Under the pieces are notes generated by a model. It was not told where the DNA came from, did not search any database, and saw only the letters and a program-made list of their open reading frames with translations. A program made the position numbers and the translations under genes. This document shows, piece after piece, positions 29,916 to 59,490 of a DNA stretch of 64,000 nt. The number at the start of each line of letters is the position of its first letter. Positions within the stretch are counted from its first letter, which is position 1. The DNA is from a phage, in sequence record PZ445443.1; one strand, written 5' to 3'.

Positions 29916-30253
29916 GTTTGTGGAGAAATATAGTTAACTACGTGTGTGGCAATCCAACTCCTGAAGAGAAGGATGTTGTGATTCACGATTTTACTAAAAG
30001 ATCTCGTGAAAAAGATCTACTGCTAACAAAGGTGACTGATAAAGATCCTGCAGTAGGGGACTGGGCAGGTTTTGCGTTCACATCGGACAAATACACCTTT
30101 AACAAAGGTGACTATCTTGTTGTGGATTTTAACGAGGACATCGAGGGTGCTGAACCTTACTATCAGACCCTTATTGTTGCAGGGTGTGTTGATCTCTCTG
30201 CAGGCATGCACAGTTTGATTCTTTTTGAGCTTGACTCTGAAGACCTTCAGTAG
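29912..30253 (+). CDS. hypothetical protein (113 aa)
   Basis: ORF track; ATGA coupling to helicase gene. Confidence 0.5.
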   Translation: MSLWRNIVNYVCGNPTPEEKDVVIHDFTKRSREKDLLLTKVTDKDPAVGDWAGFAFTSDKYTFNKGDYLVVDFNEDIEGAEPYYQTLIVAGCVDLSAGMHSLILFELDSEDLQ

Positions 30254-30270
30254 TAAGATGTGAGTCTAAA

Positions 30271-30288
30271 GGGGAGGCACTCCTCCCC
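30271..30288 (+). promoter_or_regulatory. intergenic GC stem-loop (no U-tract)
   Basis: GGGGAGG-cact-CCTCCCC between two + strand genes. Confidence 0.3.
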
Positions 30289-43659: not shown

Positions 43660-43677
43660 TATAAGGAGATCTGAAAA

Positions 43678-44388: not shown

Positions 44389-44456
44389 GAGACTGTGATA
44401 GCTATGTTTTATGATCTTCCTGTAGCGCCACCACCTGTTGAACCCGGAGAACTAAG

Positions 44457-45330: not shown

Positions 45331-45384
45331 CGACCATCTTCTGAGGTGATATAGTTTCCACGACAACTAAGAGAGGAGAGCACT

Positions 45385-45555
45385 GTGGAGACTAAAATCT
45401 TAATTCTTGCTGTGGTAGATACAACCGAAGGAGCTATATTCGAATCTGCAGGAGGGTATTTCTACCTACCATACGGAAAAAGAACTTCCGAGCCAAGTAA
45501 AGATTCAATCCTCAAAGTGTTCCCGTGTGCTTTCTGGCTGGAGATTTTGGTATAA
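45385..45555 (+). CDS. hypothetical small protein (56 aa, below ORF-track cutoff)
   Basis: GTG with strong AGAGAGGAGAG upstream; fills a 250-nt gap. Confidence 0.3.
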   Translation: METKILILAVVDTTEGAIFESAGGYFYLPYGKRTSEPSKDSILKVFPCAFWLEILV

Positions 45556-45581
45556 GATTGCAGAGGATTTGGGAGAGAATT

Positions 45582-45776
45582 ATGAGAAACAAGAAAGAAC
45601 TTTACTCTGGTGAGTGGATCAACGATCAACAGGTGGGAGAGGTAACCTGCTTCCGATGTTTTACCAGGTACAATCTTAAAACTGCACCAAAAAGTGTTCC
45701 AAAGACTGACGGTTACTACATAAAAGAACCTCATTGCCCAAAATGTAAATGCCGATTGTACTGGAGCAATCTGTAA
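45582..45776 (+). CDS. small zinc-ribbon protein (64 aa)
   Basis: CFRC...CPKCKC cysteine pairs; ATG 45582 with GGGAGAG upstream. Confidence 0.45.
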   Translation: MRNKKELYSGEWINDQQVGEVTCFRCFTRYNLKTAPKSVPKTDGYYIKEPHCPKCKCRLYWSNL

Positions 45777-45780
45777 GAGG

Positions 45781-45808
45781 TTGACATCTGAAAACTGCAG
45801 TGTATAAT
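45781..45808 (+). promoter_or_regulatory. sigma70-type promoter
   Basis: TTGACA (45781-45786), 16-nt spacer, TATAAT (45803-45808). Confidence 0.6.
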
Positions 45809-46831: not shown

Positions 46832-47160
46832 CAGAGATCATCGTTTCAACTGCAGGGTATGTATTCCTGACAATCATTGCGCTGGCTATTCTGGTGGCGG
46901 TGTATGGATTTGTTATCCTGCCTATTCTTGAGACATTTAGTTTGTGTCGGTGTTGGAGAAAAGCTTACGGACCACAACCGTGGAAAGACTGGTTCCATTT
47001 GGTGCGTATAGCGTTCTCTTATGCCTATGACCACTCCAGCAGTGCATGCGTAACCGGGTACCATGCCTACAACTGGAACTGGGAAGGTGTGGGAAGGTGG
47101 ACTGTTACAAAAACTATACCCTTGCGTTTATATAAAGGAAAGAACAAACTGGGCACCTGA
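46828..47160 (+). CDS. predicted membrane protein (110 aa)
   Basis: ORF track; hydrophobic segment VFLTIIALAILVAVYGFVILPIL; ATGA coupling. Confidence 0.5.
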   Translation: MTEIIVSTAGYVFLTIIALAILVAVYGFVILPILETFSLCRCWRKAYGPQPWKDWFHLVRIAFSYAYDHSSSACVTGYHAYNWNWEGVGRWTVTKTIPLRLYKGKNKLGT

Positions 47161-47164
47161 TATT

Positions 47165-47700
47165 TTTAAATTGCCAAGTTGCCAGAAATCAGGAGAATTT
47201 CTAAAATGGATTTTCTCCTGATATTTTGAACACATAGATATTTTAAAATTCTTAGAAAATCAGAAAATGGATCGAAAACTAAAATGGATTTTTTCAACAC
47301 AGGCGCGGAAAATTGTGCCAATCTATCTAGCCGTTTGCACCATATTCGAGATCACCGTTCCAGATTTCCTACACATACACACCTCTCCACCATACCTTTC
47401 TCCACTCACTCTTAGTGATTTATGACGGAAAACCCATCACTATCTTGAAGTTGCGGTGCAGTTTTCCAAGTACTCGATCTGTTTTTCGTTTCAAAGATTG
47501 AATTTTCTGAAAATTTTTCTCGATAAATTTCTCAGTACTCGATCTGTTTTTCGTTTTCTGAATCGGATTTTCTGGAAATCGTTCCGGCTCTCGACCTGAA
47601 ATTTTTGGGGACGAAATCGATTTTTCGTTTTCAGAAATGGATTTTTAAAATTTCTATATAGGAATATTTTAGTGGATACTATTTTATAGGAAATTGTTAC
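47165..47700. repeat. AT-rich non-coding region with inverted and direct repeats (origin-like)
   Basis: Inverted repeat TCAGGAGAA/TTCTCCTGA (47189-47221); 23-bp direct repeat AGTACTCGATCTGTTTTTCGTTT at 47469 and 47534; recurring AAAATGGAT and TTTCGTTTTC motifs; no ORF. Confidence 0.45.
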
Positions 47701-47759
47701 GGAGGGTAATTAGCGTGCTAATTAAATTTATTAAATGTGAGGAGTTCTCATTTAGAATT

Positions 47760-48110
47760 TTGAATGATAATCATTCTCGTTTGCAGAATAACGGGCAGGC
47801 CCGGTGATTGTCTCCCGGCCCCTGTTGCCCCGGCTTGTTATTATAGTATCACACAGGACAAAGAAAGCAAGGATTTTTTGCATAAATTTTTAAATGATAA
47901 TGATAACCGTTCTCATTTTATGCAGCGCCCATCCCCGGTGGTTGTCTCCCCCGTCACCGGTGCCTGCCGTCCTTTCGATAGGTATATTGTGCTACCTGGC
48001 GGGGCCGCTGTCAACACCTTTCAAAAAAAAAATTATAACCAGGTGCGCCCACTGCCAGTACCTGGCGGGGCCAACCTGGCAGGTCCGCGCTATAAAGTGA
48101 ACAGATGAAG
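47760..48110. repeat. two related GC-rich structured elements in an AT-rich intergenic region
   Basis: Both units share AATGATAAT...TTCTC-TTT-GCAG...CCGGTG-TTGTCTCCC; further TGGCGGGGCC repeats at ~47998 and ~48062; track ORF 47764..48108 is Pro/Gly-rich and coincides with the repeats. Confidence 0.35.
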
Positions 48111-48645: not shown

Positions 48646-49044
48646 ATGAAAACCACAACCTTTAATTTTGATAATGCCGACTTCTCTTTTTCTGATGTTA
48701 AAAGCTGCCGCCGTGATCGCGGATTCTACAAGGCCTATAATCTGGTGGGCCTGGACGATGACAATAATTTGCACGAAGTAGCTGAGATCCGGTATTATGC
48801 CGCCGCCAGCGGTAACACTCATTACTGTGTATTTTGGATTCACGACAACAAGAACAATAAGTACGGTTATACTGGCGGCAAGGCGAGCGGTCACGGTTAT
48901 GATAAAGCCAACGCTGCACTTGAAAGCGCATTAAGTGCCATGGGAATCACTGCCGACGGCTGGATCTATGAAGAAGAGTTTTTGGCGGCACTTGCTAACC
49001 ACTTGGGCTATAAAAAGCACATTGTAACATGCGCCCACGAATAA
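48646..49044 (+). CDS. early protein (132 aa)
   Basis: ORF track; RBS AAGAGGA. Confidence 0.55.
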   Translation: MKTTTFNFDNADFSFSDVKSCRRDRGFYKAYNLVGLDDDNNLHEVAEIRYYAAASGNTHYCVFWIHDNKNNKYGYTGGKASGHGYDKANAALESALSAMGITADGWIYEEEFLAALANHLGYKKHIVTCAHE

Positions 49045-49058
49045 AAAAAAAAAAATTA

Positions 49059-49086
49059 TTGACACGCTGCAAAATTCAAGTAAACT
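49059..49086 (+). promoter_or_regulatory. sigma70-type promoter
   Basis: TTGACA (49059-49064), 16-nt spacer, TAAACT (49081-49086); preceded by A-tract. Confidence 0.55.
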
Positions 49087-49096
49087 AGGCACAAAA

Positions 49097-49114
49097 GGCG
49101 GGAAACATCCCGCC
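49097..49114 (+). promoter_or_regulatory. conserved 5' leader hairpin (GGCGGG-loop-CCCGCC)
   Basis: GGCGGGaaacatCCCGCC ~11 nt after the -10 and before the SD; related copies at 49770, 51619, 55721. Confidence 0.45.
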
Positions 49115-49131
49115 AACACAGAGGAAAAGCT

Positions 49132-49527
49132 ATGAATAAGAACGTACGCCGCATCATGAACGAACTGGCAAACGATGAAAAAATTATTGACATGCATTTG
49201 GTCAACATTTGCCGCCGTTGTGTAACATATAACAACCGCGCCGCAAAAGCGCGTGAGATGAACGCAAAAGGCACCTTAAAGCCCTTTCAGGTGGTTGTAA
49301 AATCTATAACTAATGCAGCAGGCCAGGCGCATGATCACAACAACGAGAGCACTAATATTGATCCGTCTTACGTAATGAAACGGATCCGGACTTGCAAGAA
49401 TAAAGAGCAGGTGTATAACGTCATAGATTGGCTTGATTCCATGGGCGACGTGGTTTATAATAGGTTTTCTGCAGCTATCGAGATCCAGCTTGACAGGTTG
49501 GACGGGAAAGTACTAAAAACTTATTAA
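49132..49527 (+). CDS. early protein (131 aa)
   Basis: ORF track; RBS AGAGGAAAAG. Confidence 0.55.
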   Translation: MNKNVRRIMNELANDEKIIDMHLVNICRRCVTYNNRAAKAREMNAKGTLKPFQVVVKSITNAAGQAHDHNNESTNIDPSYVMKRIRTCKNKEQVYNVIDWLDSMGDVVYNRFSAAIEIQLDRLDGKVLKTY

Positions 49528-49530
49528 GCT

Positions 49531-49575
49531 TATTTTTAGATGGCCTTGACTCCAGGGCCATCAATAAAGTAAACT
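49531..49575 (+). promoter_or_regulatory. repeated 45-bp hairpin/promoter element, copy 1
   Basis: TATTTTTAGATGGCCTTGACTCCAGGGCCATCAATAAAGTAAACT; inverted repeat GATGGCC/GGCCATC encloses TTGACT; TAAACT 18 nt downstream as candidate -10. Confidence 0.5.
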
Positions 49576-49608
49576 AACCACAGTTAAGCGGAAAAGGGGG
49601 GCTTGAAG

Positions 49609-49728
49609 ATGAGTACTACACGCCAACACACAAAGGTAACTATTATCGTTTGCATCATTGGTTACATCCTGGCGCAAATGTTGATGGGTAGCGCCAATGA
49701 TTTCGCAAAATTTTTCTTAAACTTTTAA
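49609..49728 (+). CDS. small hydrophobic protein (39 aa, below ORF-track cutoff)
   Basis: ATG 49609 with AAAAGGGGGG upstream; MSTTRQHTKVTIIVCIIGYILAQMLMGSANDFAKFFLNF; downstream of element copy 1. Confidence 0.4.
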   Translation: MSTTRQHTKVTIIVCIIGYILAQMLMGSANDFAKFFLNF

Positions 49729-49756
49729 TTGACAAGCTAACTTAAATCAGTATAAT
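49729..49756 (+). promoter_or_regulatory. sigma70 consensus promoter
   Basis: TTGACA (49729-49734), 16-nt spacer, TATAAT (49751-49756). Confidence 0.65.
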
Positions 49757-49809
49757 ACTAAGCACATAAACGGGAAAACTTCCCAGAACACACAAAAGGA
49801 GAAAACATT

Positions 49810-50160
49810 ATGAATACTTCCATCACTATGACCACCGAAGAAAAAGCCCTGCAGATCGCCGCTCTGAAAAAACAGATTGCAGAACTGGAAGACAAGATCG
49901 ACAATTTTGAAATCGACGAAGACAAATACGATGATAAATATGATGAATGGTTGGACGAGATCCACGGCGAAATTATGATCGGTTGTATCTCTTTCCTCCC
50001 TTCACGTATCCTTAGGGAGCTGGATCCTATCGCTTACCGTTGCGGCTTTAGCGATTATATTGATAGCCTAGATATTGAAGATGACGAAGAATACCAGGAA
50101 TTGCAGACAGAGCTTGAAGAAGCAAAAGAAGAGCTTGCAGAACTGGAAGAAAACGAGTAA
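49810..50160 (+). CDS. early acidic coiled-coil protein (116 aa)
   Basis: ORF track; RBS AAAGGAGAA; Glu/Asp-rich heptad-like sequence. Confidence 0.55.
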   Translation: MNTSITMTTEEKALQIAALKKQIAELEDKIDNFEIDEDKYDDKYDEWLDEIHGEIMIGCISFLPSRILRELDPIAYRCGFSDYIDSLDIEDDEEYQELQTELEEAKEELAELEENE

Positions 50161-50163
50161 ATT

Positions 50164-50208
50164 TATTTTTAGATGGCCTTGACTCCAGGGCCATCAATAA
50201 AGTAAACT
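50164..50208 (+). promoter_or_regulatory. repeated 45-bp hairpin/promoter element, copy 2
   Basis: Near-identical to copy 1; TTGACT 50179-50184, TAAACT 50203-50208; starts right after upstream stop codon. Confidence 0.5.
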
Positions 50209-50249
50209 TTACACTGTTAACACTGAACTAATACAGAGGAGTTAAAACC

Positions 50250-50495
50250 ATGGCAGCACTAATCACCAAATATTATGCCCCTACCAACACCAAAAGCGCC
50301 CGTATCATGGTAAAAGGCTTCGGACGTAAAAAGGTTTACACCTGGGATTATTCCCTAGACATGGAAGACAACTACACCAACGCAATGACCGATTTTATTA
50401 ATGAACTAAATAAGCAGATCTTGACAAGTTATAAAGTGACAGATATTGCTTATATAGGTGAAGGCGGGATCTGTTTTGTGGGCATTGTGAAATAG
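50250..50495 (+). CDS. early small protein (81 aa)
   Basis: ORF track; RBS AGAGGAG. Confidence 0.55.
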   Translation: MAALITKYYAPTNTKSARIMVKGFGRKKVYTWDYSLDMEDNYTNAMTDFINELNKQILTSYKVTDIAYIGEGGICFVGIVK

Positions 50496-50496
50496 T

Positions 50497-50540
50497 TATT
50501 TTTTCGGTGGTCCTGGCTGCAGGGCCATCTATAAAGATAA
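50497..50540 (+). promoter_or_regulatory. degenerate copy of the hairpin/promoter element
   Basis: TTTTCGGTGGTCCTGGCTGCAGGGCCATCTATAAAG: keeps the GGGCCATC arm and A/T-rich 3' part but lacks TTGACT. Confidence 0.3.
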
Positions 50541-50569
50541 TTTATTAACACCATGAAAGGAGAAAGTAC

Positions 50570-50923
50570 ATGATCAGCGGGGCTAGTTTTATTATTGGCG
50601 CTATTGCTACGGCTTTAATTGTAAACAAGATCCAGGATAAAAAGGAAAGAGGAAGTACCGCCCTTGCAGAATATCCATTTTGGACATTTAACGATAACGA
50701 AGATTATATTATAAAGTATAAAAATAAAGAGGGTGACCAAGTAACACCGCGACCGATCCCAGCTTACAAGATGCAGGAAACACTATACCGCCTGGAGGCG
50801 GGGGGCGCAAAAATTGTAGACTTTTGGGGATACGACCACACAGATCAGGAAGTTATAAAGCGCCGTATCCGGGCTATTCAGGCCAATATTGAAGTTAGCA
50901 AGGGGGGAATATATGAAAATTAA
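50570..50923 (+). CDS. early membrane-anchored protein (117 aa)
   Basis: ORF track; RBS AAAGGAGAAAG; N-terminal hydrophobic helix ISGASFIIGAIATALIV. Confidence 0.5.
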   Translation: MISGASFIIGAIATALIVNKIQDKKERGSTALAEYPFWTFNDNEDYIIKYKNKEGDQVTPRPIPAYKMQETLYRLEAGGAKIVDFWGYDHTDQEVIKRRIRAIQANIEVSKGGIYEN

Positions 50924-51110
50924 TTTCGAGAAAATTGTAAAGCGCCCTCATGATTCCGAAGAGCTGCCAGAACGCCGCCAGCGTAACAATAAACTGAATA
51001 AGCCAAAAAGGTTTGGGAAGATCTGGCGTAATCATTATGATCGTAAATTGCCCGGCCTACTTTTGGAGCGTGAACGACAGGCAGAACGATACCGCCATAA
51101 AGACAAATAA
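50913..51110 (+). CDS. early basic small protein (65 aa)
   Basis: ATG 50913 with AAGGGGGG upstream; Arg/Lys-rich. Confidence 0.45.
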   Translation: MKINFEKIVKRPHDSEELPERRQRNNKLNKPKRFGKIWRNHYDRKLPGLLLERERQAERYRHKDK

Positions 51111-51116
51111 CAACCA

Positions 51117-51146
51117 ACGCCCAGCCATTGTGCGGGGCTTTTTATT
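51117..51146 (+). terminator. putative terminator (short stem + T-tract)
   Basis: GCCC...GGGC short stem followed by TTTTTATTTC. Confidence 0.35.
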
Positions 51147-51268
51147 TCTATCCTACGAATAGCGCCCCTGGTTGGCCCTGTAAGCGCCAAAAAGGCCCCC
51201 ACCTATGCAATCGCCCCCTTTAACCTGAAAACATCGCCCAGGGCCGTTTCATGGCGTTAAAAATATCA

Positions 51269-51296
51269 TTGACATCGTCAACAGGTTAGCTATACT
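51269..51296 (+). promoter_or_regulatory. sigma70-type promoter
   Basis: TTGACA (51269-51274), 16-nt spacer, TATACT (51291-51296). Confidence 0.6.
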
Positions 51297-51328
51297 AACC
51301 ACATCAAAGAGAGAAAGGAGTAAACGCC

Positions 51329-51601
51329 ATGCGTAAATTAAAAAATTTTGATAAAGTTGATGTTATCCTGAATAATTTTTACTACTGCAACAACAAGGCT
51401 ATTTGGTGGCGTGATAGTTCCACCGATAAAGTCAGGGCGCGCTTTCTTCAGGGGCACTGGCAAGGCCGCCCGGTGATTAAAATCATGGGGCAATTGGTAG
51501 CGTTTAAAAATTGCCGCCGTGTTGATGACGTTGAGGAGATTTTAAACATTTTGCGCCACAATAATTTAAAAAAAATAGTGTTGACAAGTAAGCCTCAATA
51601 A
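51329..51601 (+). CDS. early protein (90 aa)
   Basis: ORF track; RBS AAAGGAG. Confidence 0.5.
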   Translation: MRKLKNFDKVDVILNNFYYCNNKAIWWRDSSTDKVRARFLQGHWQGRPVIKIMGQLVAFKNCRRVDDVEEILNILRHNNLKKIVLTSKPQ

Positions 51602-51609
51602 GTATACTT
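51581..51609 (+). promoter_or_regulatory. sigma70-type promoter (overlaps 3' end of upstream gene)
   Basis: TTGACA (51581-51586), 17-nt spacer, TATACT (51604-51609); followed by leader hairpin GGCGGGaaaactTCCCGCC (51619-51637). Confidence 0.6.
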
Positions 51610-51665
51610 AAACACACAGGCGGGAAAACTTCCCGCCACTAACAAAGAAAATAGGAGAAAATATC

Positions 51666-52289
51666 ATGACCACCGTTAACATTACCGCAGGTTACAATTT
51701 ATCTTTCGACGTGCTGACCGACGAACAAAAAGAAAAAGCCGTTGAAATGGTCCGCGAAAGAGAAGAACACAGCGGGGATAACTTTTTTGCAGAAAGTGTA
51801 ATTGAATACTATAAAGAATATGTTTTTCCAGAGTATGGCCTTGAAGATACCGAAGTACATTGGTCAGGCTTTTGGTGCCAGGGTGACGGCGCGTCAATCA
51901 GTGCTGAAAACGTGGATTTAGAAAAATTTTTGCGTAAAGTAAAGGCCCTGACCAAGTTCCGATCAATTCGTCACTTGTTCGGCACAATGCACGATGGCGA
52001 GTTATCAGCCAGTGTTGAACGCGACAAGTACAGCCATTACAGCCATGAAAACACTGTAAGCGGGTACATTGATACCACTTGGCTAGATCTGACCGCCAAA
52101 CAAGAAAACAAAGTTGAAGAGCTGGAAGAGCTGATCACCGAGACGGTACGGGAGCTATCCCGCAAGGTTTACGTAGACCTGGAGGAGGCCTATCTTGAAC
52201 AGTTTACTACCGAAAACCTGATCGGCCTTATTGAAGCCAATGATTGGCGGTTTGATGTGGATGAATATGGGGAGATGAGTTTTTCATAA
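51666..52289 (+). CDS. early protein (207 aa)
   Basis: ORF track; RBS AGGAGAA. Confidence 0.55.
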   Translation: MTTVNITAGYNLSFDVLTDEQKEKAVEMVREREEHSGDNFFAESVIEYYKEYVFPEYGLEDTEVHWSGFWCQGDGASISAENVDLEKFLRKVKALTKFRSIRHLFGTMHDGELSASVERDKYSHYSHENTVSGYIDTTWLDLTAKQENKVEELEELITETVRELSRKVYVDLEEAYLEQFTTENLIGLIEANDWRFDVDEYGEMSFS

Positions 52290-52297
52290 ATAAAGTG

Positions 52298-52325
52298 TTG
52301 CAATAATCTAAAAACCTGCTATATT
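52298..52325 (+). promoter_or_regulatory. sigma70-like promoter
   Basis: TTGCAA (52298-52303), 16-nt spacer, TATATT (52320-52325). Confidence 0.45.
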
Positions 52326-52378
52326 AAAACTCAAGGGGCGAGATGACTTGCCCCACACAAAACAAAGAGGATAACATC

Positions 52379-52759
52379 ATGAAAAACACCACCAAGGCCA
52401 TTGACACCGTTATGTTTAACCTGGTTACATTCCGTGAAGATATGAAAGATCTTCCACGTGAAACAGTGTGCGACCATATCGAAAACTATCGCAAACTTAT
52501 TAAAGAATTGCCATTGAAACGAGATCAGTACGCGGCTAACGCCATGCTTAACGCCATGATCAAAAAGATGATTCAGTGTGATTTAACTCTGGCCTATGAT
52601 TATGCAGGTGGTCGTTTTGCAGTATACAATCAGCCCGTGCCTGGTATGAGCACCACCGAAGAATTGCACGCGCTCAATCTAAAACAAGATGTGTGGGATA
52701 GTATGCCCCGCGTGGTGGTATGGGTAGAAAGCGGAAAGATTTACGGCGATAATTTTTAA
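52379..52759 (+). CDS. early protein (126 aa)
   Basis: ATG 52379 with AAGAGGA upstream (track start 52343 lacks RBS). Confidence 0.5.
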   Translation: MKNTTKAIDTVMFNLVTFREDMKDLPRETVCDHIENYRKLIKELPLKRDQYAANAMLNAMIKKMIQCDLTLAYDYAGGRFAVYNQPVPGMSTTEELHALNLKQDVWDSMPRVVVWVESGKIYGDNF

Positions 52760-52770
52760 TCAGGTAACAG

Positions 52771-52798
52771 GCGGCGGCATATTTGCCGCCTTATTGTT
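52771..52798 (+). terminator. rho-independent terminator
   Basis: GGCGGC-atattt-GCCGCC followed by TTATTGTT. Confidence 0.55.
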
Positions 52799-52826
52799 AA
52801 TCAGAACTGTAAAAGAGGTACATAGA

Positions 52827-53198
52827 ATGGAATTTATCATTTTGGCTATATTAGTTGCCTTGTTTAACGCCTGGATCGCTGGCAAGATGGGTAGATCCGC
52901 CTTTTTATGGTTTATTATATCTATCTTCCTGGGAGTGGTTGCAACTATTGTATTGGTTATCCTTGCAATTGTTGACAAGGGGAATAATAGAAAGGGTAAA
53001 GTATTTTCAGACCTGTACGACGCTCAAACGTTTGTCAACGCCTATTATAGTGATCTTCCAGTCTCCCTACGTTGCAGCCTTGCACAACAGGTTTTCGATG
53101 AAGCTAAAACCAGAGATCACGCCCATGAGATTTGTTTAACTGAGGCGGATCGCCTATTTGAGAGGAATAGAAAATATGTGGACCAGCCGTTTAAATAA
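52827..53198 (+). CDS. early membrane protein (123 aa, two predicted TM helices)
   Basis: ATG 52827 with AAGAGG upstream; MEFIILAILVALFNAWIAG...FLWFIISIFLGVVATIVLVILAIV. Confidence 0.5.
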   Translation: MEFIILAILVALFNAWIAGKMGRSAFLWFIISIFLGVVATIVLVILAIVDKGNNRKGKVFSDLYDAQTFVNAYYSDLPVSLRCSLAQQVFDEAKTRDHAHEICLTEADRLFERNRKYVDQPFK

Positions 53199-53397
53199 TG
53201 CCACGTTAATTAACCCCTTTAGTGAAGATTTGAAGCCAGCCGCCTGGCGTGATGGATTCAATAACGAAAGCTTTATTTTCAGGCCTGATCTTAAGGAATT
53301 TTATAACAATGGATCGAACAACGACAGAGATAATTTTTCTTGTAATGTGCGTGGTGATAATACTCCTGGGGGCCATTGCAAACCACGTCACTGCTAA
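53176..53397 (+). CDS. hypothetical small protein (73 aa); frame choice uncertain
   Basis: ATG 53176 with GAGAGGAA upstream; competes with overlapping ORF 53249..53434 in another frame. Confidence 0.3.
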   Translation: MWTSRLNNATLINPFSEDLKPAAWRDGFNNESFIFRPDLKEFYNNGSNNDRDNFSCNVRGDNTPGGHCKPRHC

Positions 53398-53417
53398 CAG
53401 GAGGGAAGGGGGAGACG

Positions 53418-53537
53418 ATGACACCCAAGGATAAGCCCCGCACCGATAAGGCGCGCCGTGTTATGGTATGGCTTGAGATCATCGCCCTTGAAATATTGTT
53501 AGGCGTAGGGATGTATTTTATCGCTGTAAGTAACTGA
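53418..53537 (+). CDS. small hydrophobic protein (39 aa, below ORF-track cutoff)
   Basis: ATG 53418 with GGAGGGAAGGGGGAG upstream; MTPKDKPRTDKARRVMVWLEIIALEILLGVGMYFIAVSN; followed by terminator. Confidence 0.4.
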   Translation: MTPKDKPRTDKARRVMVWLEIIALEILLGVGMYFIAVSN

Positions 53538-53541
53538 TAAC

Positions 53542-53581
53542 GGCCCCCGATCCCTGGGGGCCTAACTTTTTAATTTTTTTT
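53542..53581 (+). terminator. rho-independent terminator
   Basis: GGCCCCC-gatccct-GGGGGCC followed by TAACTTTTTAATTTTTTTT. Confidence 0.6.
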
Positions 53582-53679
53582 CTCCCTGGGTGTTGCAATC
53601 CGATCCAGAATATGGATAATAACAATCAACGGGGAGACACTCCCCACCGCACAGACAAAGTTCCAAAAGGAGAAACAAA

Positions 53680-53880
53680 ATGAGCAATAATATCCGCGTT
53701 ATTAACTTCAAAAAAGAAGAAAAAATTGCTGTACTGGTTGATGGTCAAGAAATCTTCAAGGGCGATTATGAAGATCATCAAACGGCGATTAGTATCACTC
53801 GCGTGATTGGTTACCATAATTTCTACCCCCAAGGCGCTGAGGCAGCAGTTAAACGAATCAAAGAGATTGTAGGCCTGTAA
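53680..53880 (+). CDS. early small protein (66 aa)
   Basis: ORF track; RBS AAAAGGAGAAA. Confidence 0.55.
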   Translation: MSNNIRVINFKKEEKIAVLVDGQEIFKGDYEDHQTAISITRVIGYHNFYPQGAEAAVKRIKEIVGL

Positions 53881-53884
53881 AATT

Positions 53885-53929
53885 TATTTTTAGATGGCCT
53901 TGACTCCAGGGCCATCAATAAAGTAAATT
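53885..53929 (+). promoter_or_regulatory. repeated 45-bp hairpin/promoter element, copy 3
   Basis: TATTTTTAGATGGCCTTGACTCCAGGGCCATCAATAAAGTAAATT; TTGACT 53900-53905, TAAATT 53924-53929; starts right after upstream stop. Confidence 0.5.
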
Positions 53930-53964
53930 TAAACCCTGTTAAAATACCACGCAGTTAACAAGGA

Positions 53965-54273
53965 GTGATAGACATGTTTATCCAGGCTAATAATCTTTAT
54001 TTCTTTGATGGTCAGATCGTAGATGGTGTGGAAGTGGAGATCACCGGGTGCCCTGGCGGTCAGGCTATGACTTTCCGGAATAATGCCTTTGATGATTCTC
54101 ATATCGTTATGAAAATGGAAGTTACGAAGCTGGACGACAAGAAAGCACTCATTGACTATTCTGTGAAAGATCATCCAGACTACCACATGATCTATGGTGA
54201 TTTGTGCATTGTTGACCGTGACAAGGTAGGCGGCATTGTGATCGCTATTGTGAACGATGTTTTCTCAAACTAA
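53965..54273 (+). CDS. early protein (102 aa)
   Basis: ORF track; RBS AAGGAG. Confidence 0.55.
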   Translation: MIDMFIQANNLYFFDGQIVDGVEVEITGCPGGQAMTFRNNAFDDSHIVMKMEVTKLDDKKALIDYSVKDHPDYHMIYGDLCIVDRDKVGGIVIAIVNDVFSN

Positions 54274-54290
54274 TTTCAGCAGGTGATTTT

Positions 54291-54641
54291 ATGAAAGTCA
54301 AACTATATTACCTTAATGAGCTTAACCCCCTTGCCCAGGTCCGCGCCCTGGCTAATACCTTGATTTGTGAGAAATCTGTATATTGTGTTGAGCTTAACGC
54401 CATGCGTGAACGTCTCAAAGGTGGTTACTTTGACATCCATGCTGCAATCAACGGCCTGAATATGGAATTTATACGCCTACGTAACAGCCGCCGGAATCTG
54501 GCAAGAATGGAACAAGATCCGGCCCACCTTCGTAAACTGGTTATTGAAAATCATCTGATGTTCAATGCCGAGGGTGATTATTACCATTTTAACCGCAAAC
54601 GTTGGTACCGTGGCGGCAATACAGACAAGGATGCAAAATAA
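54291..54641 (+). CDS. early protein (116 aa)
   Basis: ORF track; weak RBS. Confidence 0.5.
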   Translation: MKVKLYYLNELNPLAQVRALANTLICEKSVYCVELNAMRERLKGGYFDIHAAINGLNMEFIRLRNSRRNLARMEQDPAHLRKLVIENHLMFNAEGDYYHFNRKRWYRGGNTDKDAK

Positions 54642-54677
54642 GGCCCCTAGCAGGGCCTGCAGCGATATAATCACATA

Positions 54678-54711
54678 AAGGCCATGCAACCGCATGGCCT
54701 TTATTATTTTG
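54678..54711 (+). terminator. rho-independent terminator
   Basis: GGCCATGC-aacc-GCATGGCC followed by TTTATTATTTT; a second hairpin AGGCCC...GGGCCT lies just upstream. Confidence 0.6.
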
Positions 54712-54758
54712 GCGTTACAACGGCATACGGAGCGCTTAAAAATTTTTTAAATAAGTAC

Positions 54759-54787
54759 TTGCATCATGTCCGACAATATGGATAATA
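54759..54787 (+). promoter_or_regulatory. sigma70-like promoter
   Basis: TTGCAT, 17-nt spacer, ATAATA. Confidence 0.4.
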
Positions 54788-54845
54788 AGAGTTGTCGAAG
54801 GGGCTATGCCTCCAATCATTAACCGGATAGATAGGAGTTAAAATC

Positions 54846-55130
54846 ATGGCTATTGTTACCGCTGGTGATGTAGTAGAAATGGAAGCAAAATACTTAAAAA
54901 CTGGTATGCATATCCTACGCAACGATCTTGAACTGGTCCTGACAATGGTTGACTATAACCCAGGGCAAGATTATCCAAGTGTTGACTACTTTTTTGAGTA
55001 TGTCGATGAAGAGCTAAAAGAGGATGAGGCCTACTGCGGAGAATTCTGCAACTACTTTTGCCCTGACGAGGTTGTAAAAGTTATCTACCAACCTGGCGTA
55101 CCTTTCCCGCTACACGCTATCAATAAATAA
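54846..55130 (+). CDS. early protein (94 aa)
   Basis: ORF track; RBS TAGGAG. Confidence 0.55.
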   Translation: MAIVTAGDVVEMEAKYLKTGMHILRNDLELVLTMVDYNPGQDYPSVDYFFEYVDEELKEDEAYCGEFCNYFCPDEVVKVIYQPGVPFPLHAINK

Positions 55131-55185
55131 ACCTGGCGGGGCCGAAAAGGCCCCCAATTATGAAAATAAAGAGAGGCAAATCATC

Positions 55186-55419
55186 ATGATGGAACAAATT
55201 AAACGCGCCGAGGCTATTAATGGCAACGTGATCTATTTTGTCAGCAAAAACGAAAAAGGCGTACCCTATGCGGCGGTAATAGTACAGCCTGACGGCGATT
55301 ATTGGTGCACTGTGTACGGCGCTTATTCTTTTGGGCGTCCAGTGCATGATAAAATTTTGAAAGTAGCGAACCCTACCGGGAAAAATATCACAGCAGAAAA
55401 ATTTTTTGAAAATAGTTGA
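55186..55419 (+). CDS. early small protein (77 aa)
   Basis: ORF track; RBS AGAGAGG. Confidence 0.5.
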   Translation: MMEQIKRAEAINGNVIYFVSKNEKGVPYAAVIVQPDGDYWCTVYGAYSFGRPVHDKILKVANPTGKNITAEKFFENS

Positions 55420-55443
55420 CACGACCATATAAGACTGTAGTAT
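55416..55443 (+). promoter_or_regulatory. sigma70-like promoter
   Basis: TTGACA (55416-55421), 16-nt spacer, TAGTAT. Confidence 0.5.
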
Positions 55444-55496
55444 ATAAATCAAAGGGGGGCAACAAGCCCCACCAACCACAAAGAGGATAAAAAATC

Positions 55497-55676
55497 ATGG
55501 CTATTATTGCAAAGACTGAGATCGTAGGCTTAGATTCTATTCTTCTCGCATATGAGGAAGCTATAGAAATGTATGTGGTTTCCTATGGTGAATATATCCG
55601 TGAATATAAATCTATTGATCTAGCTTTTGAATGTTATATTCGCCAGGTCAATAAAGCATATGATGATTATCGTTAA
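55497..55676 (+). CDS. early small protein (59 aa, below ORF-track cutoff)
   Basis: ATG 55497 with AAGAGGA upstream; promoter and GC hairpin in leader. Confidence 0.45.
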   Translation: MAIIAKTEIVGLDSILLAYEEAIEMYVVSYGEYIREYKSIDLAFECYIRQVNKAYDDYR

Positions 55677-55682
55677 AATAGT

Positions 55683-55710
55683 TTGACAACAGTCAACAAT
55701 CTGGTAAAGT
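55683..55710 (+). promoter_or_regulatory. sigma70-like promoter
   Basis: TTGACA (55683-55688), 16-nt spacer, TAAAGT; followed by leader hairpin GCGGGAatactTCCCGC (55721-55740). Confidence 0.45.
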
Positions 55711-55758
55711 GTACTACATAGCGCGGGAATACTTCCCGCCATTAATGAGGATAATTTA

Positions 55759-55896
55759 ATGAAAACTTTCAACGCAACAGTCTCGACAATTGGTTATATT
55801 ATTACAGTACAAGCCGTGGATCTGGTAGCAGCAGCAAACAAGATTAAAAAGATGATTCCGCCAGGCAGTGAATTTTCCGTTTGGAAAGTAAAATAA
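55759..55896 (+). CDS. early small protein (45 aa, below ORF-track cutoff)
   Basis: ATG 55759 with GAGGA upstream; MKTFNATVSTIGYIITVQAVDLVAAANKIKKMIPPGSEFSVWKVK. Confidence 0.4.
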   Translation: MKTFNATVSTIGYIITVQAVDLVAAANKIKKMIPPGSEFSVWKVK

Positions 55897-55899
55897 ATC

Positions 55900-55927
55900 T
55901 TGACAATAGTTTATTACTTGATAGACT
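55900..55927 (+). promoter_or_regulatory. sigma70-like promoter
   Basis: TTGACA (55900-55905), 16-nt spacer, TAGACT. Confidence 0.5.
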
Positions 55928-56094
55928 GTATTTCGTAGGGCGGGGCAATAAGGCAACGCCCATTAATGATGGTAGAATCATGTTAGATAAAATTTTCACG
56001 GTTGTAGTAGTTGGCCTGGCATTATAGGTTGGAGTGGTTGCAACTATGGCTAACATGATCCTATCTTCCCATGGTATCGGTTAAGGTGAATCAA

Positions 56095-56310: not shown

Positions 56311-56401
56311 TTTAATTTATAGCGATACCTGAAAATTAACCAATAAATCATAAACAGGCGGTTACCGCCGCCTTAAACGTAGCAGAAAGAGGCTAGACAC
56401 A

Positions 56402-57027: not shown

Positions 57028-57043
57028 TATTTATAAACTACAA

Positions 57044-57080
57044 AACAGGGCTTGCAATGGTCCTGTTTTTTGTTATACTT
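57044..57080 (+). terminator. putative terminator
   Basis: ACAGG...CCTGT stem followed by TTTTTTGTT. Confidence 0.45.
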
Positions 57081-57155: not shown

Positions 57156-57184
57156 TTGACATCTGCCATGGGGTGGGGTAACAT
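57156..57184 (+). promoter_or_regulatory. sigma70-like promoter
   Basis: TTGACA (57156-57161), 17-nt spacer, TAACAT. Confidence 0.5.
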
Positions 57185-57238
57185 TTATCTTGAAGGGGCA
57201 AAAGTGCCCACACAACAACCAGGAGAGAGGAAAACACT

Positions 57239-57511
57239 ATGTCAAGCTGGATTAATCAAGAAGTCGAATCACGTTTTAATGCTATTTGGGATCTCATCGA
57301 AAAAGAGGACGGAACATCAAGCCCCTACCTCAACAATTTGGAATTCCATTTTGTGGAAGCGATGAACGCAGAACATGATCACGAAGGTGGCGCGGATGAG
57401 TTCGCTAAAGGTTATGGCTTTAACAATGCCAACGAAATGATCGAGGCGGTAGTACTCCAGGCTGAGGAAGATTATCAATTAAAAACGCTTGAATTCTGCC
57501 GCCATAAGTAA
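57239..57511 (+). CDS. early protein (90 aa)
   Basis: ORF track; RBS GGAGAGAGG. Confidence 0.55.
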   Translation: MSSWINQEVESRFNAIWDLIEKEDGTSSPYLNNLEFHFVEAMNAEHDHEGGADEFAKGYGFNNANEMIEAVVLQAEEDYQLKTLEFCRHK

Positions 57512-57571
57512 TAAGATAATGACACGGGCCAAAAGGCCCACTAATCAGAACCGCACAAAGAGGTAAACATC

Positions 57572-58401: not shown

Positions 58402-58420
58402 TTTTTTAACTGAATTATCA

Positions 58421-58445
58421 AGGGGCTTAGGCCCCTTTCTTTTTG
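58421..58445 (+). terminator. rho-independent terminator closing the early cluster
   Basis: AGGGGC-ttag-GCCCCT followed by TTCTTTTT. Confidence 0.65.
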
Positions 58446-59039
58446 TCTGCTCTTCCCCTACCATAAACGGCCATACATGGCAAGTGGAATAATTGACGAG
58501 CCATCAATCCCACACACTGTACAAATATACATGTAAAATAACTATTGCATAACTTTTCATTGTGTGGTAGCAGGGCCATTTTTACACGTTTTTCCTTCCA
58601 AAATTGCACGTAATGCAGCATTTGCACAAAATTTAACCTGATGCATATCTTCAATAGCTTGTCAACAACTAAAAATCTTTATAAGTCATACACTTACATA
58701 ACTACAAAAGCGTTTTCTACGTGAAAAATCGAGTATAACTATAGCCGCCAGACCTCAGAATTTACGTACGCTCGACATTCTATAGCCTGCTAAGCATTTA
58801 TTCCAACCATAGAATAACGGAATAGTCAATACCTGCATAAAATAATTATTCGTGTAAACTGCATAACATAAATCGGCCCAGGTGTCAACATTTTTCGTAA
58901 ACAGTCCGAAATTATCACTATGAGTTATCATAAACAGGGAAATCTTTAGTCGTCTAATGTTTACTGTACATTACTATACTGACTGGAATCATTAGATGAC
59001 TAAGAGAAAGATAAGAAATAATTAACAATACAATTATTT

Positions 59040-59345
59040 TATCTGTAACAATAAGGCAACTATGCAAACGAATGGCATGGCGCGACGGAGTCGCGACATA
59101 ATATAAAAGCAGTAACCATCACCCCCGTGATAGTTTGTCTGCAAACTATTAATCAGATCATAGTTGCCTTGTATTTAGTTAATCATGACATAACAAGCAA
59201 GGCAACTATAGATCTGCTAATAGTTGCCCTGCTTTTATATTATGTCATAGAAACACCCGAAGGGGTGACCAAAGGTCACCTGGCATGGCCAGTGAAAGAT
59301 TATTAACTTGCTAATAGTTATCATGCAAACGAATGGCATGGCTGA
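59040..59345. repeat. palindrome-rich segment bounded by a 20-bp direct repeat
   Basis: ATGCAAACGAATGGCATGGC at 59062-59081 and 59323-59342; palindromes CGCGACggaGTCGCG, GATAGTTTGtctgCAAACTATT, GGCAACTAT...ATAGTTGCC, GGTGACCaaaGGTCACC; long-range inverted repeat GACATAATATAAAAGCAG / CTGCTTTTATATTATGTC. Confidence 0.45.
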
Positions 59346-59350
59346 TTATC

Positions 59351-59490
59351 GGTGTGTAAACAGTCAATCATGTAAATGGTTAGCATGTGAACAATCAGGA
59401 ATGTAAACAATCCAGTGTGTAAACTAATAGGTGTGTAAAAGTGTCATGTTGTGTCAGTTAGGTCACATTATGTCATATTGTGTCAGACAA
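59351..59490. repeat. iteron-like array of TGTAAAC / TGTCA(G/T) short repeats
   Basis: GTGTGTAAACAG, CATGTAAATGG, CATGTGAACAA, AATGTAAACAA, GTGTGTAAACTA, GTGTGTAAAAG at ~16-bp spacing, then TGTCAT/TGTCAG repeats. Confidence 0.45.

What the first reader, a model, noticed from the sequence alone, without database searches (positions are those of the whole stretch)
49097..55740. Conserved 5' leader hairpin shared by several early transcripts
At least four early genes carry the same leader layout: promoter -10, then ~10 nt later a GC hairpin GGCGGG-(aaaact/aaacat/atact)-CCCGCC (49097-49114, 49770-49786, 51619-51637, 55721-55740), then an A/C-rich linker, SD and ATG. A related hairpin GGGGC...GCCCC lies at 52335-52354. 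A stem-loop at the extreme 5' end of several mRNAs suggests a shared post-transcriptional control, such as stabilisation against 5' decay or binding by one regulator.
Basis: seen in the sequence. Interest (0 to 1): 0.6.

Follow-up and report, generated by a model that had tools for sequence, protein, structure and literature searches.

The report
Early-promoter cassettes with transcribed leader hairpin
In this rV5-like coliphage, at least twelve host-type promoters are each followed about 10 bases later by a short G-then-C hairpin and an A/C-rich leader; the same repeated cassette occurs in three coliphage lineages, resembles the 'PeSL' promoter/stem-loop cassettes of T4-like phages, and its function is still untested.

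Summary
The window is an rV5-like coliphage (Vequintavirus). I found 12 sigma70-type promoters, not 4-5, with a GC hairpin starting 8-12 nt after the -10 hexamer. After the hairpin come a T-poor A/C-rich linker, an SD and an ATG.

- **Not chance:** 10 such promoter-hairpin pairs were found against 0.66 expected (P about 2e-9).
- **Not terminators:** the hairpins have 0-3 T in the next 8 nt, against 4-7 for the true terminators here.
- **Structure is kept, sequence is not:** stems differ between copies but pairing holds. Loops vary and even flip. All stems run G-rich arm first.
- **Wider distribution:** the same layout occurs in phi92-like, phAPEC8-like and jumbo Asteriusvirus phages.
- **Recombination:** the cassettes are recombination points. 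One gene is deleted in two relatives by cassette-to-cassette crossover.

The closest known kind is the PeSL cassette of T4-like phages. In RB49 those stem-loops sit inside the promoter, whereas here the whole hairpin is transcribed.

Function is inferred only. I favour an RNA-level 5'-proximal stabiliser/insulator, with modest confidence. The predicted 3-5 nt unpaired 5' end is longer than the classical protection rule allows. Rivals are read-through attenuation, a purine-rich initial transcribed sequence, and regulator binding.

The parts
30231..30288 (+). Cassette K: TTGACT-17-TAAGAT promoter, 11 nt, hairpin 30271-30288 (GGGGAGG-cact-CCTCCCC), then ACAAAAAAC linker, SD and ATG at 30316 (DNA methyltransferase, 441 aa). 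This is the only copy outside the small-gene block.
   Evidence: PHROG DNA methyltransferase
49059..49131 (+). Cassette A: TTGACA-16-TAAACT, 10 nt, hairpin 49097-49114 (GGCGGGA-aaca-TCCCGCC, -14.3 kcal/mol), AACACAGAGG linker/SD, ATG at 49132.
49729..49809 (+). Cassette B: TTGACA-16-TATAAT, 15 nt, weak hairpin 49772-49784 (GGGAA-aac-TTCCC, -5.5 kcal/mol), AGAACACACAAAAGGAG, ATG at 49810.
   Evidence: families D3, D9
51581..51665 (+). Cassette C: TTGACA-16-TATACT, 10 nt, hairpin 51619-51637 (GGCGGGAA-aac-TTCCCGCC, -14.6), ACTAACAAAG... SD, ATG at 51666.
   Evidence: best covariance-model hit in the window, 38.7 bits
52298..52378 (+). Cassette D: TTGCAA-16-TATATT, 9 nt, hairpin 52335-52354 (GGGGCGAG-atga-CTTGCCCC with one G.U, -15.1), ACACAAAACAAAGAGG, ATG at 52379.
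53593..53679 (+). Cassette E: TTGCAA-16-GATAAT, 10 nt, hairpin 53631-53645 (GGGGAG-aca-CTCCCC, -10.5), ACCGCACAGACAAAG..., ATG at 53680. A canonical terminator (53542-53562) lies just upstream.
54759..54845 (+). Cassette F: TTGCAT-16-GATAAT, 13 nt, hairpin 54800-54812 (GGGGC-tat-GCCTC with one G.U). The stem sequence differs in almost every relative while pairing is kept. ATG at 54846. Terminators at 54641-54704 lie just upstream.
55416..55496 (+). Cassette G: TTGACA-16-TAGTAT, 10-12 nt, hairpin 55456-55470 (GGGGC-aacaa-GCCCC, two extra G 5'), ACCAACCACAAAGAGG, ATG at 55497.
55683..55758 (+). Cassette H: TTGACA-16-TAAAGT, 12 nt, hairpin 55723-55739 (GCGGGAA-tac-TTCCCGC), CATTAATGAGG, ATG at 55759. 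It is a recombination breakpoint in six relatives.
55900..55979 (+). Cassette I: TTGACA-16-TAGACT, 10 nt, interrupted hairpin 55938-55961 (GGGCG...CGCCC, -14.9), ATTAATGATGG, ATG at 55980 (very short ORF in this window).
57156..57238 (+). Cassette J: TTGACA-17-TAACAT, 11 nt, hairpin 57196-57209 (GGGCA-aaag-TGCCC), ACACAACAACCAGGAG, ATG at 57239. The terminator at 57042-57069 lies just upstream.
57489..57571 (+). Cassette N: weak promoter TTGAAT-17-TAAGAT overlapping the end of the upstream gene, 8 nt, hairpin 57526-57539 (GGGCC-aaaa-GGCCC), ACTAATCAGAACCGCACAAAGAGG, ATG at 57572.
49525..49587 (+). Second cassette type, 63-nt repeat family D1 (also at 50158-50220, 53879-53941, and a diverged copy at 50492-50554). 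It has a T-rich tract, then hairpin GATGGCC-ttgactccag-GGCCATC whose loop carries a -35 TTGACT, then -10 TAAACT. The stem-loop overlaps the promoter, as in the common RB49 PeSL types.
   Evidence: (three hairpin starts at -37)
51119..51139 (+). Contrast class: canonical intrinsic terminators lying downstream of a gene's stop codon (the promoters of E, F and J follow three of them), each with a T-run. Examples: 51119-51139, 52773-52790, 53542-53562, 54675-54704, 57042-57069, 58420-58437.

Best explanation
Each hairpin is one module of a repeated early-gene expression cassette. In order, the cassette holds an A-rich upstream tract, a near-consensus sigma70 promoter (mostly with a 16-bp spacer), about 10 nt, a G-first GC stem-loop, a U-poor and G-poor A/C-rich linker, an SD and an ATG.

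SHOWN:
- The cassette is repeated at least 12 times in the window and dozens of times in related genomes.
- The hairpin lies wholly downstream of the -10, so it should be transcribed from its own promoter.
- Its pairing is kept while its sequence drifts.
- It lacks a terminator U-tract.
- The cassettes are crossover points for gene gain and loss.

INFERRED (my preferred mechanism): the element acts in the RNA. It folds within the first ~25 nt of each early mRNA into a stable 5'-proximal stem-loop.
- Together with the U-poor single-stranded linker, this makes the leader a poor substrate for 5'-end-dependent RNase E decay.
- It also locks the G-rich, SD-like initial segment away from the ribosome-binding region, which stays open.
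- The effect would be strong, context-independent expression of whatever small gene sits behind the cassette.

The 0.4 confidence is for this mechanism. Confidence that this is a structurally selected, PeSL-like promoter/leader cassette is about 0.85.
For: - **Position and enrichment:** hairpin starts cluster 9-12 nt after the -10 (53 of 78 unique cassettes; mode 10). Enrichment is about 15-fold, P about 2e-9.
- **Structure rather than sequence:** folding energies are -7 to -16 kcal/mol, with z of -3 to -6 against mononucleotide shuffles.
  - There are at least 20 different stem sequences: GGCGGGAA/TTCCCGCC, GGGGAG/CTCCCC, GGGGC/GCCCC, GGGCA/TGCCC, GGGGAGAA/TTCTCCCC, GGTGGGGAA/TTCCCCACT and others.
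  - In an 11-sequence seed alignment, 98.9% of cells pair and 4 of 8 pairs change on both sides. The seeds were chosen as hairpins, so this test is biased.
  - In orthologs, stems diverge as fast as other non-coding sites (0.098 per site, against 0.103 for the promoter spacer and 0.126 for third codon positions). Differences are equal in the two arms (45 and 45), and most of the distinct alleles examined keep a hairpin; eight alleles in five leaders (C, G, H, I and L015's F) are mismatched, shortened, weakened or lost.
- **Not terminators:** 0-3 T (median 0) in the 8 nt after the stem, against 4-7 for terminators. Cassettes E, F and J keep the hairpin although a canonical terminator lies immediately upstream.
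- **Linker composition:** A 55%, C 20%, G 15%, T 12%, against 30/20/23/27 for the window. RNase E cuts AU-rich single strands (PMC9943677).
- **Context:** the window encodes the homolog of rV5 gp11, called Srd-like (PMC3606486). The match to PHROG 'Srd anti-sigma factor' is E = 5e-9, although the best hit is an HNH family. T4 Srd raises RNase E activity on host mRNA (PMC4980113).
- **Same layout in other genera:** Justusliebigvirus, Phapecoctavirus and Asteriusvirus.
Against: - No transcription start site or expression timing is known for any of these phages. No paper in the searched library maps them.
- With the usual start rule the 5' end has 2-6, mostly 3-5, unpaired nt. RppH and RNase E need only 2 or more and prefer 3 or more. 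RNase E bypasses simple stem-loops when scanning. The classical protective geometry is therefore probably not met.
- About half of the consensus promoters in the same phages lack the hairpin (48585, 51269, 57904, 38836-45781).
- The fixed position could be partly inherited, because the cassettes are homologous copies.
- In RB49 the equivalent G-first stem-loops sit inside the promoter. If the function is shared with those, it cannot depend on being at the 5' end of the cassette's own transcript.
- The test for RNA-specific G.U over A.C mismatches was inconclusive (6 against 3).
Confidence: 0.4

Rival explanations
1. PeSL-type function. The stem-loop acts on transcripts arriving from upstream promoters, as an attenuator, pause site or 3'-end barrier that insulates each gene cassette. 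As repeated DNA, it also supplies homology for modular gene shuffling. Being at the 5' end of its own transcript would be incidental.
For: - PeSLs of RB49/phi1 are sigma70 promoters plus GGGG...CCCC stem-loops upstream of small ORFans. One such stem-loop cut lacZ read-through about as well as rrnB T1, and PeSLs recombine to excise genes (PMC2839356).
- Here most cassettes (A, C, D, G, H, I) have no terminator between the upstream stop codon and the promoter.
- Gene 55759-55896 is deleted in L002 and L013 by H x I cassette crossovers at two different points. Many other indel ends fall in cassettes or terminator hairpins.
- Loop reverse-complement flips show hairpin-mediated DNA events.
- G-first stems also occur in RB49.
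Against: - There is no U-tract: 0-3 T in the 8 nt after the stem.
- The cassette's own transcript would contain the same hairpin and be attenuated equally.
- E, F and J keep the hairpin directly after canonical terminators.
- In RB49 the stem-loops sit at -24 or -16/-14 relative to the end of the -10, and only 1 of about 20 lies downstream. Here the downstream position is the rule.
- Recombination explains how the cassettes spread. It does not explain why pairing is kept while stems diverge.
Confidence: 0.2
2. Initial-transcribed-sequence model. The G/A-rich 5' arm occupies about +4 to +12 and is selected in the DNA and nascent RNA to speed escape of RNA polymerase from near-consensus, escape-limited promoters. 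The C-rich 3' arm is selected secondarily, to fold this G-rich, SD-like RNA away.
For: - Predicted +4 to +9 is 56-81% G, and the 5' arm is 86% purine. 52 of 54 unique stems are G-first and none is C-first, whereas terminators in the window are mixed.
- GG/GA near +6 favour escape, and ITS purine content correlates with productive yield (PMC5961368).
- The promoters are near consensus.
Against: - Hairpin-less promoters of equal strength exist in the same genomes.
- The model does not require a perfectly complementary arm 3-5 nt later.
- The start site is only predicted.
- RB49's G-first stems lie upstream of +1.
Confidence: 0.15
3. A common binding site for one regulator. This could be an RNA hairpin bound by a phage protein (boxB/N-like antitermination or a translational repressor), or a palindromic DNA operator at about +4 to +22 used to shut off early promoters.
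For: - A hairpin or palindrome lies just downstream of many early promoters.
- The GGCGGGAA/TTCCCGCC version recurs in three phage lineages.
Against: - Stems differ in sequence and length. The outer G-to-C distance varies from about 13 to 24 bp and loops from 3 to 10 nt.
- Loops evolve fastest (0.22 per site) and are reverse-complemented between relatives: aca/tgt in A, aac/gtt in C.
- No boxA-like element lies next to the hairpins; matches are at chance level.
- No Rfam family matches.
Confidence: 0.08
4. Terminators for antisense (minus-strand) transcription entering the early block.
For: The pattern scan flags six of the hairpins as terminator-like on the minus strand, because the A-rich start region and the -10 read as T-rich there. 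EdH4's annotators labelled two of them 'terminator'.
Against: - The T-tracts are interrupted and inconsistent (TGTGTGTTTA, ATTGTTATTA).
- No minus-strand genes or promoters lie in the block.
- The jumbo-phage copies lack such tracts.
Confidence: 0.03

Closest known systems
PeSL (promoter-early stem-loop) cassettes of T4-like phages RB49/phi1, PST and nt-1 (Arbiol et al. 2010, PMC2839356; Comeau et al. 2014, PMC4122927)
   Same: - Composite motif: an AT-rich tract, a sigma70-consensus early promoter, a G-run...C-run stem-loop, an A/C-rich leader, an SD and a start codon.
- Repeated in front of small genes of unknown function in a variable region.
- Cassette-to-cassette recombination deletes or swaps genes.
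- The window's second repeat family (49525-49587 and its copies) has the stem-loop over the -35, like the common PeSL types.
   Different: - In RB49 I found the stem-loops between -35 and -10 (start at -24) or over the -10 (-16/-14). Only about 1 in 20 lay downstream. Here and in phi92-like, phAPEC8-like and Asteriusvirus phages, the downstream, fully transcribed position is the rule.
- There is no U-rich tail.
- The phage lineages are unrelated: Vequintavirinae, Stephanstirmvirinae and Asteriusvirus, against Straboviridae.
- PeSL stem-loops were interpreted as terminators/attenuators. That reading fits poorly here.
5'-terminal stabilising stem-loops of E. coli mRNAs (ompA-type; the rule that RppH and RNase E need unpaired 5' nucleotides)
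   Same: A GC stem-loop close to the 5' end of the mRNA, followed by a single-stranded segment and the SD. The leader is U-poor, so it offers few RNase E sites.
   Different: The predicted unpaired 5' segment is 2-6 nt, mostly 3-5. Protection requires fewer than 2. No half-life data exist. I recall ompA itself from general knowledge and did not test it.
Intrinsic (Rho-independent) terminators
   Same: A GC-rich stem of 5-9 bp with a 3-5 nt loop. Annotators of phage EdH4 labelled two of these hairpins as terminators.
   Different: No U-tract on the sense strand. The hairpins lie after a promoter, not after a stop codon. True terminators with T-runs occur separately in the same region.
Lambdoid nut boxB hairpins
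   Same: A short hairpin, often with an A-rich loop, transcribed soon after early promoters.
   Different: Loop sequence and length are not conserved, and loops flip. There is no boxA. There is one hairpin per gene rather than one per operon. No N-like protein was identified.

Membership tests
PeSL cassette | Sigma70-consensus early promoter with an AT-rich tract upstream of the -35 | tested here: met
   TTGACA/TTGCAA-16/17-TAnnnT preceded by AAAATAGT-like tracts at all 12 cassettes.
PeSL cassette | Adjacent stable stem-loop, typically a G-tract followed by a C-tract | tested here: met
   52 of 54 unique stems are G-first; energies are -7 to -16 kcal/mol.
PeSL cassette | Repeated in a variable region in front of small genes of unknown function, ending in an SD and start codon | tested here: met
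   Eleven copies lie in 49.0-57.6 kb before genes of 15-207 aa that are all annotated as hypothetical. Leader, SD and ATG segments are themselves repeat families.
PeSL cassette | Recombination between cassettes produces gene insertions, deletions or replacements | tested here: met
   Gene 55759-55896 was lost by an H x I crossover in L002 and L013, at different points. Further breakpoints fall at H, I, N and the 51269 promoter.
PeSL cassette | Stem-loop position: five subclasses are described, most commonly between -35 and -10 or over the -10 | tested here: inconclusive
   Here the stem starts 8-12 nt after the -10. That subclass is described but rare: 1 of about 20 in my RB49 scan. The window's D1 repeat family fits the common type.
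PeSL cassette | Stem-loop works as a transcription terminator/attenuator | not testable with these tools
   Sequence argues against it: no T-run.
5'-terminal mRNA stabiliser | [quoted passage not shown] | tested here: inconclusive
   The start site is unknown. The rule-based prediction is 2-6 unpaired nt, against a requirement of fewer than 2.
5'-terminal mRNA stabiliser | Removing the stem shortens mRNA half-life | not testable with these tools
   This needs an experiment.
Intrinsic terminator | GC stem-loop immediately followed by a U-tract on the transcribed strand | tested here: not met
   0-3 T in 8 nt (median 0), against 4-7 for the terminators of the window.
boxB/nut antitermination site | Conserved loop recognised by an N protein, with boxA nearby | tested here: not met
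   Loops vary and flip. boxA-like matches are at chance level and none is adjacent.
Palindromic operator of a dimeric repressor | Constant half-site sequence and constant spacing | tested here: not met
   There are at least 20 different arm sequences. Loops are 3-10 nt and stems 5-9 bp.
Any Rfam family | Match at the gathering score | tested here: not met
   No hit in the whole window. Only sub-threshold chance hits appear in 47.9-58.5 kb.

The most novel reading that the evidence does not exclude
The G-first leader hairpin would be a general self/non-self mark of early mRNAs in several large virulent coliphages, doing two jobs:
- Its purine-rich 5' arm speeds escape from near-consensus promoters.
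- The folded hairpin plus the U-poor leader spares phage messages from the RNase E activity that the phage itself stimulates through its Srd-like protein, while host mRNAs are destroyed.

The cassette would then be a portable 'express early and survive host-mRNA shut-off' module, exchanged between unrelated phage families.
Probability: 0.15. Interest if true: 0.7.

Novelty: new variant of a known kind. Interest (0 to 1): 0.45.

Why it matters
rV5-like, phi92/phAPEC8-like and PBECO4-like phages are common in therapy and reference collections, including BASEL. Their early regions are walls of unannotated small genes.

Recognising a standard promoter-hairpin-leader cassette has several uses:
- It gives a simple rule for delimiting early transcription units.
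- It corrects 'terminator' labels placed on leader hairpins.
- It explains where gene gain and loss happens.
- It offers a compact natural expression module for synthetic biology.

If the hairpin proves to protect phage mRNAs during host-mRNA shut-off, or to tune promoter escape, it would be a new and easily testable layer of early-gene control shared by unrelated phages.

Tried and rejected
- **Protein-seeded search of IMG/VR:** gave only two close loci.
- **Exact-pattern scan of IMG/VR for promoter + GGCGGGAA:** gave about 130 hits, of which only 7 had the complementary arm. The rest are at the level I estimate for chance matches, so it was not used for distribution claims.
- **G.U against A.C mismatches as a test for RNA-level selection:** 6 against 3, too few to decide.
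- **'G-first' as a strand asymmetry:** rejected, because a palindrome reads G-first on both strands. It still separates these hairpins from C-first hairpins and from the mixed terminators.
- **MAFFT alignment of 38 diverse hairpins (A1):** not structurally consistent, so not used for pair counts.
- **Covariance-model alignment A3:** mixes both strands of the same palindromes, so it was used only as a copy finder.
- **ORF 20728-21627 as the Srd homolog:** my guess was wrong; relatives annotate it as a fucosyltransferase. The Srd-like ORF is 19611-20585 on the minus strand, and its best family is HNH.
- **Rfam at gathering and at E-value thresholds:** nothing.
- **Literature searches for start-site maps or leader hairpins in Vequintavirinae/phi92:** nothing.

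Full report
**What the window is.** Bases 49000-56000 are 93-95% identical to about 100 rV5-like coliphages of the genus Vequintavirus, including EdH4, slur16, Murica and BASEL phages. In total 225 records match. The stretch 48.1-58.4 kb is a one-directional array of small genes that are all annotated as hypothetical. Non-coding repeat regions flank it. The rV5 genome paper lists 33 sigma70-type promoters and 20 terminators and says nothing about leader hairpins (PMC3606486). No Rfam family matches anywhere in the window.

**Checking the observation.**
- One correction: the copy at 49770-49786 is only GGGAA-aac-TTCCC (49772-49784).
- My own promoter scan, folding and hairpin enumeration found twelve promoters of this type. 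Their hairpins are at 30271, 49097, 49772, 51619, 52335, 53631, 54800, 55456, 55723, 55938, 57196 and 57526.
- Each hairpin starts 8-12 nt after a -10 hexamer; copy B (49772) is the exception at about 15 nt. Each is followed by an A/C-rich stretch, an SD and an ATG.
- The window holds 93 perfect GC hairpins. Ten of 76 promoter-like sites have one starting 8-13 nt after the -10, against 0.66 expected (P about 2e-9). Within the early block the count is 7 against 0.47 (P about 7e-7).
It also shows that linker, SD and ATG segments are repeat families too: D6, D7, D8 and D10.

**Anatomy.** I pooled 78-85 unique cassettes from the window and relatives.
- The stem starts 10 nt after the -10 in 32 cassettes and 9-12 nt in 53.
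- Stems have 5-9 pairs, loops are mostly 3-5 nt, and energies run from -7 to -16 kcal/mol.
- The 5' arm is 61% G, 25% A and 1% T. The 3' arm is its mirror image. 52 of 54 unique stems are G-first and none is C-first.
- The 12 nt after the stem are A 55%, C 20%, G 15%, T 12%.
- 41 of 54 hairpin-bearing promoters have a 16-bp spacer.
- About half of the good promoters in the same genomes have no hairpin, for example 48585, 51269 and 57904.

**Not terminators.** Leader hairpins have 0-3 T (median 0) in the next 8 nt. The eleven true terminators I compared have 4-7, and they sit after stop codons. Cassettes E, F and J keep their hairpins although a canonical terminator lies just upstream. The pattern scan flags six leader hairpins only on the opposite strand, where the A-rich start region reads as T-rich. 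That probably explains why EdH4's annotators labelled two of them 'terminator'.

**Conservation.** In ten Vequintavirus relatives nearly every ortholog keeps a hairpin.
- Per-site divergence is 0.000 for the -35, 0.042 for the -10 and 0.098 for each stem arm, with 45 differences in each arm. It is 0.22 for loops, 0.115 for the linker and 0.126 for third codon positions.
- So stems change about as fast as unconstrained sites while pairing persists.
- Leader F has a different stem in almost every genome: GGGGC/GCCTC, GGAGGT/GCCTCC and GGGGG/CCCCC.
- D and E change stem length and loop. C shows a C-G to U.G change.
- Eight alleles in five leaders (C, G, H, I and L015's F) are mismatched, shortened, weakened or lost.
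- Loops are reverse-complemented between relatives: aca against tgt in A, and aac against gtt in C. These are minute inversions at palindromes, and they show that loop identity is not under selection.
- A seed alignment of 11 diverse copies is 98.9% paired, with double-sided changes in 4 of 8 pairs. The seeds were picked as hairpins, so this test is biased.

**Distribution.** The same layout occurs well beyond Vequintavirus.
- It appears in Justusliebigvirus KKE7M (10 of 17 promoters), Phapecoctavirus ESCO5 (at least 9 of about 12 promoters) and the 350-kb jumbo phage Sharanji, an Asteriusvirus.
- In Sharanji it reads TTGCAA-16-TATAAT-gttTTACATAG-GGGGAGAA..TTCTCCCC.
- A covariance model built from 11 seeds finds dozens of copies per genome. 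The sense strand always scores higher than the antisense strand.
- Some of the small genes are shared with the jumbo phages at about 68% DNA identity.

**Recombination.** Gene 55759-55896 is missing in L002 and L013.
- L002 joins the H promoter and hairpin to the I gene's SD and ATG, within the shared CCATTAATGA.
- L013 joins the H -35 to the I spacer and hairpin.
- Other breakpoints fall in cassettes H, I and N, in the 51269 promoter, and between two similar terminator hairpins.

**Comparison with known systems.** The closest described kind is the PeSL cassette of T4-like phages: a sigma70 early promoter plus a GGGG...CCCC stem-loop before small ORFans, mediating modular shuffling. Five positional subclasses are described (PMC2839356).
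- I scanned 50 kb of RB49. Its stem-loops start at -24 (between the -35 and -10) or at -16/-14 (over the -10). Only one lay downstream.
- The window's 63-nt D1 repeats have the hairpin over the -35, the same kind of promoter-overlapping placement as the common RB49 types.
- The finding itself is the downstream, fully transcribed variant, which is the rule in these three lineages.

**Mechanism.** Nothing here is measured. I prefer an RNA-level role: a stable 5'-proximal hairpin plus a U-poor leader that together stabilise and insulate early messages.
- Context: the window encodes an Srd-like ORF at 19611-20585 on the minus strand. Its PHROG Srd match is E = 5e-9, and its best hit is an HNH family. 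rV5 gp11 is called Srd-like. T4 Srd stimulates RNase E on host mRNA.
- The main weakness: standard start-site rules predict 3-5 unpaired 5' nt. RppH and RNase E accept 2 or more, and RNase E steps over simple stem-loops.
- First rival: PeSL-style attenuation of read-through. It is disfavoured by the missing U-tract and by cassettes E, F and J.
- Second rival: a purine-rich initial transcribed sequence that aids promoter escape. GG/GA near +6 favour escape (PMC5961368), and predicted +4 to +9 is 56-81% G.
- Third rival: regulator binding. It is disfavoured by the variable stems and loops and by the absence of boxA.

**Verdict.** This is a real, structurally selected and widely shared promoter-leader cassette. 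It is a new positional variant of a known kind (PeSL), and it has not been described for these phages in the literature I could search.

Noticed in passing
window 49525-49587, 50158-50220, 53879-53941 (diverged copy at 50492-50554): A 63-nt repeat with a T-rich tract, then hairpin GATGGCC-ttgactccag-GGCCATC whose loop holds a -35 TTGACT, then -10 TAAACT and a leader. This is a second cassette type with the stem-loop overlapping the promoter, as in the classical RB49 PeSLs. No U-tract follows it on either strand.
   Followed up: partly
window 49097-49114 and 51619-51637, compared with L001/L003/L013: Hairpin loops are exact reverse complements between relatives (aca/tgt; aac/gtt). These are minute inversions at perfect palindromes and imply hairpin- or cruciform-mediated DNA events in these genomes.
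   Followed up: partly
window 55683-55980, compared with L002 5439-5550 and L013 9188-9300: The 45-aa gene 55759-55896 is deleted in two relatives by recombination between the adjacent H and I cassettes, at two different crossover points. In L012, L014, L015 and L016 the H promoter is joined to a different downstream gene.
   Followed up: yes
window 47150-48100 and 58440-60900: Two non-coding regions flank the small-gene block. The first has three tandem-like copies of about 65 nt (47460-47645, TACTCGATCTGTTTTTCGTTT...) and GC-rich inverted segments. The second has many short repeats (GTGTAAAC-type at 59340-59440; ATGCAAACGAATGGCATGGC twice). They could be origin, packaging or terminal-repeat signals.
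   Followed up: no
window 55138-55154 and 56357-56369: These are G-first hairpins without a T-run and without a recognisable promoter, lying between genes (GGGGCC-gaaaa-GGCCCC; GGCGG-tta-CCGCC). They may be intercistronic RNA stabilisers or relics of cassettes.
   Followed up: no
window 19611-20585 (minus strand): The first gene leftward of the bidirectional promoter region at about 20.6 kb matches PHROG HNH endonuclease (E = 2.6e-110). It also matches 'decoy of host sigma70' (2e-12) and 'Srd anti-sigma factor' (5e-9) more weakly. This is the rV5 gp11 homolog.
   Followed up: partly
L139/L140 (Escherichia phage Sharanji, Asteriusvirus): The jumbo phage has two distinct promoter cassette families. 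One is TTGCAA-16-TATAAT-gttTTACATAG plus a hairpin. The other is TTGACA-17-CATAAT-...ATCAACTACTGAA without a hairpin. It also shares several small early genes with rV5-like phages at about 68% DNA identity, which points to cross-family exchange of early modules.
   Followed up: partly
public records MG0656xx ('Campylobacter phage C12', A147 and others): About 20 records labelled as Campylobacter jejuni phages are 93-95% identical to this coliphage region. The host label looks doubtful.
   Followed up: no
L001 (EdH4, MK327930) 3090-3108 and 9441-9455: Two leader hairpins, orthologs of 49097 and 55456, are annotated as transcription terminators although they lie between a promoter and its gene and have no T-run.
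   Followed up: yes
window 49044-49057; L015 around 7860: An A13 homopolymer lies right after the stop codon of gene 48646-49044, in front of cassette A. In V18 (L015) the F hairpin is replaced by a run of about 17 G, which could be slippage or an assembly artefact.
   Followed up: no
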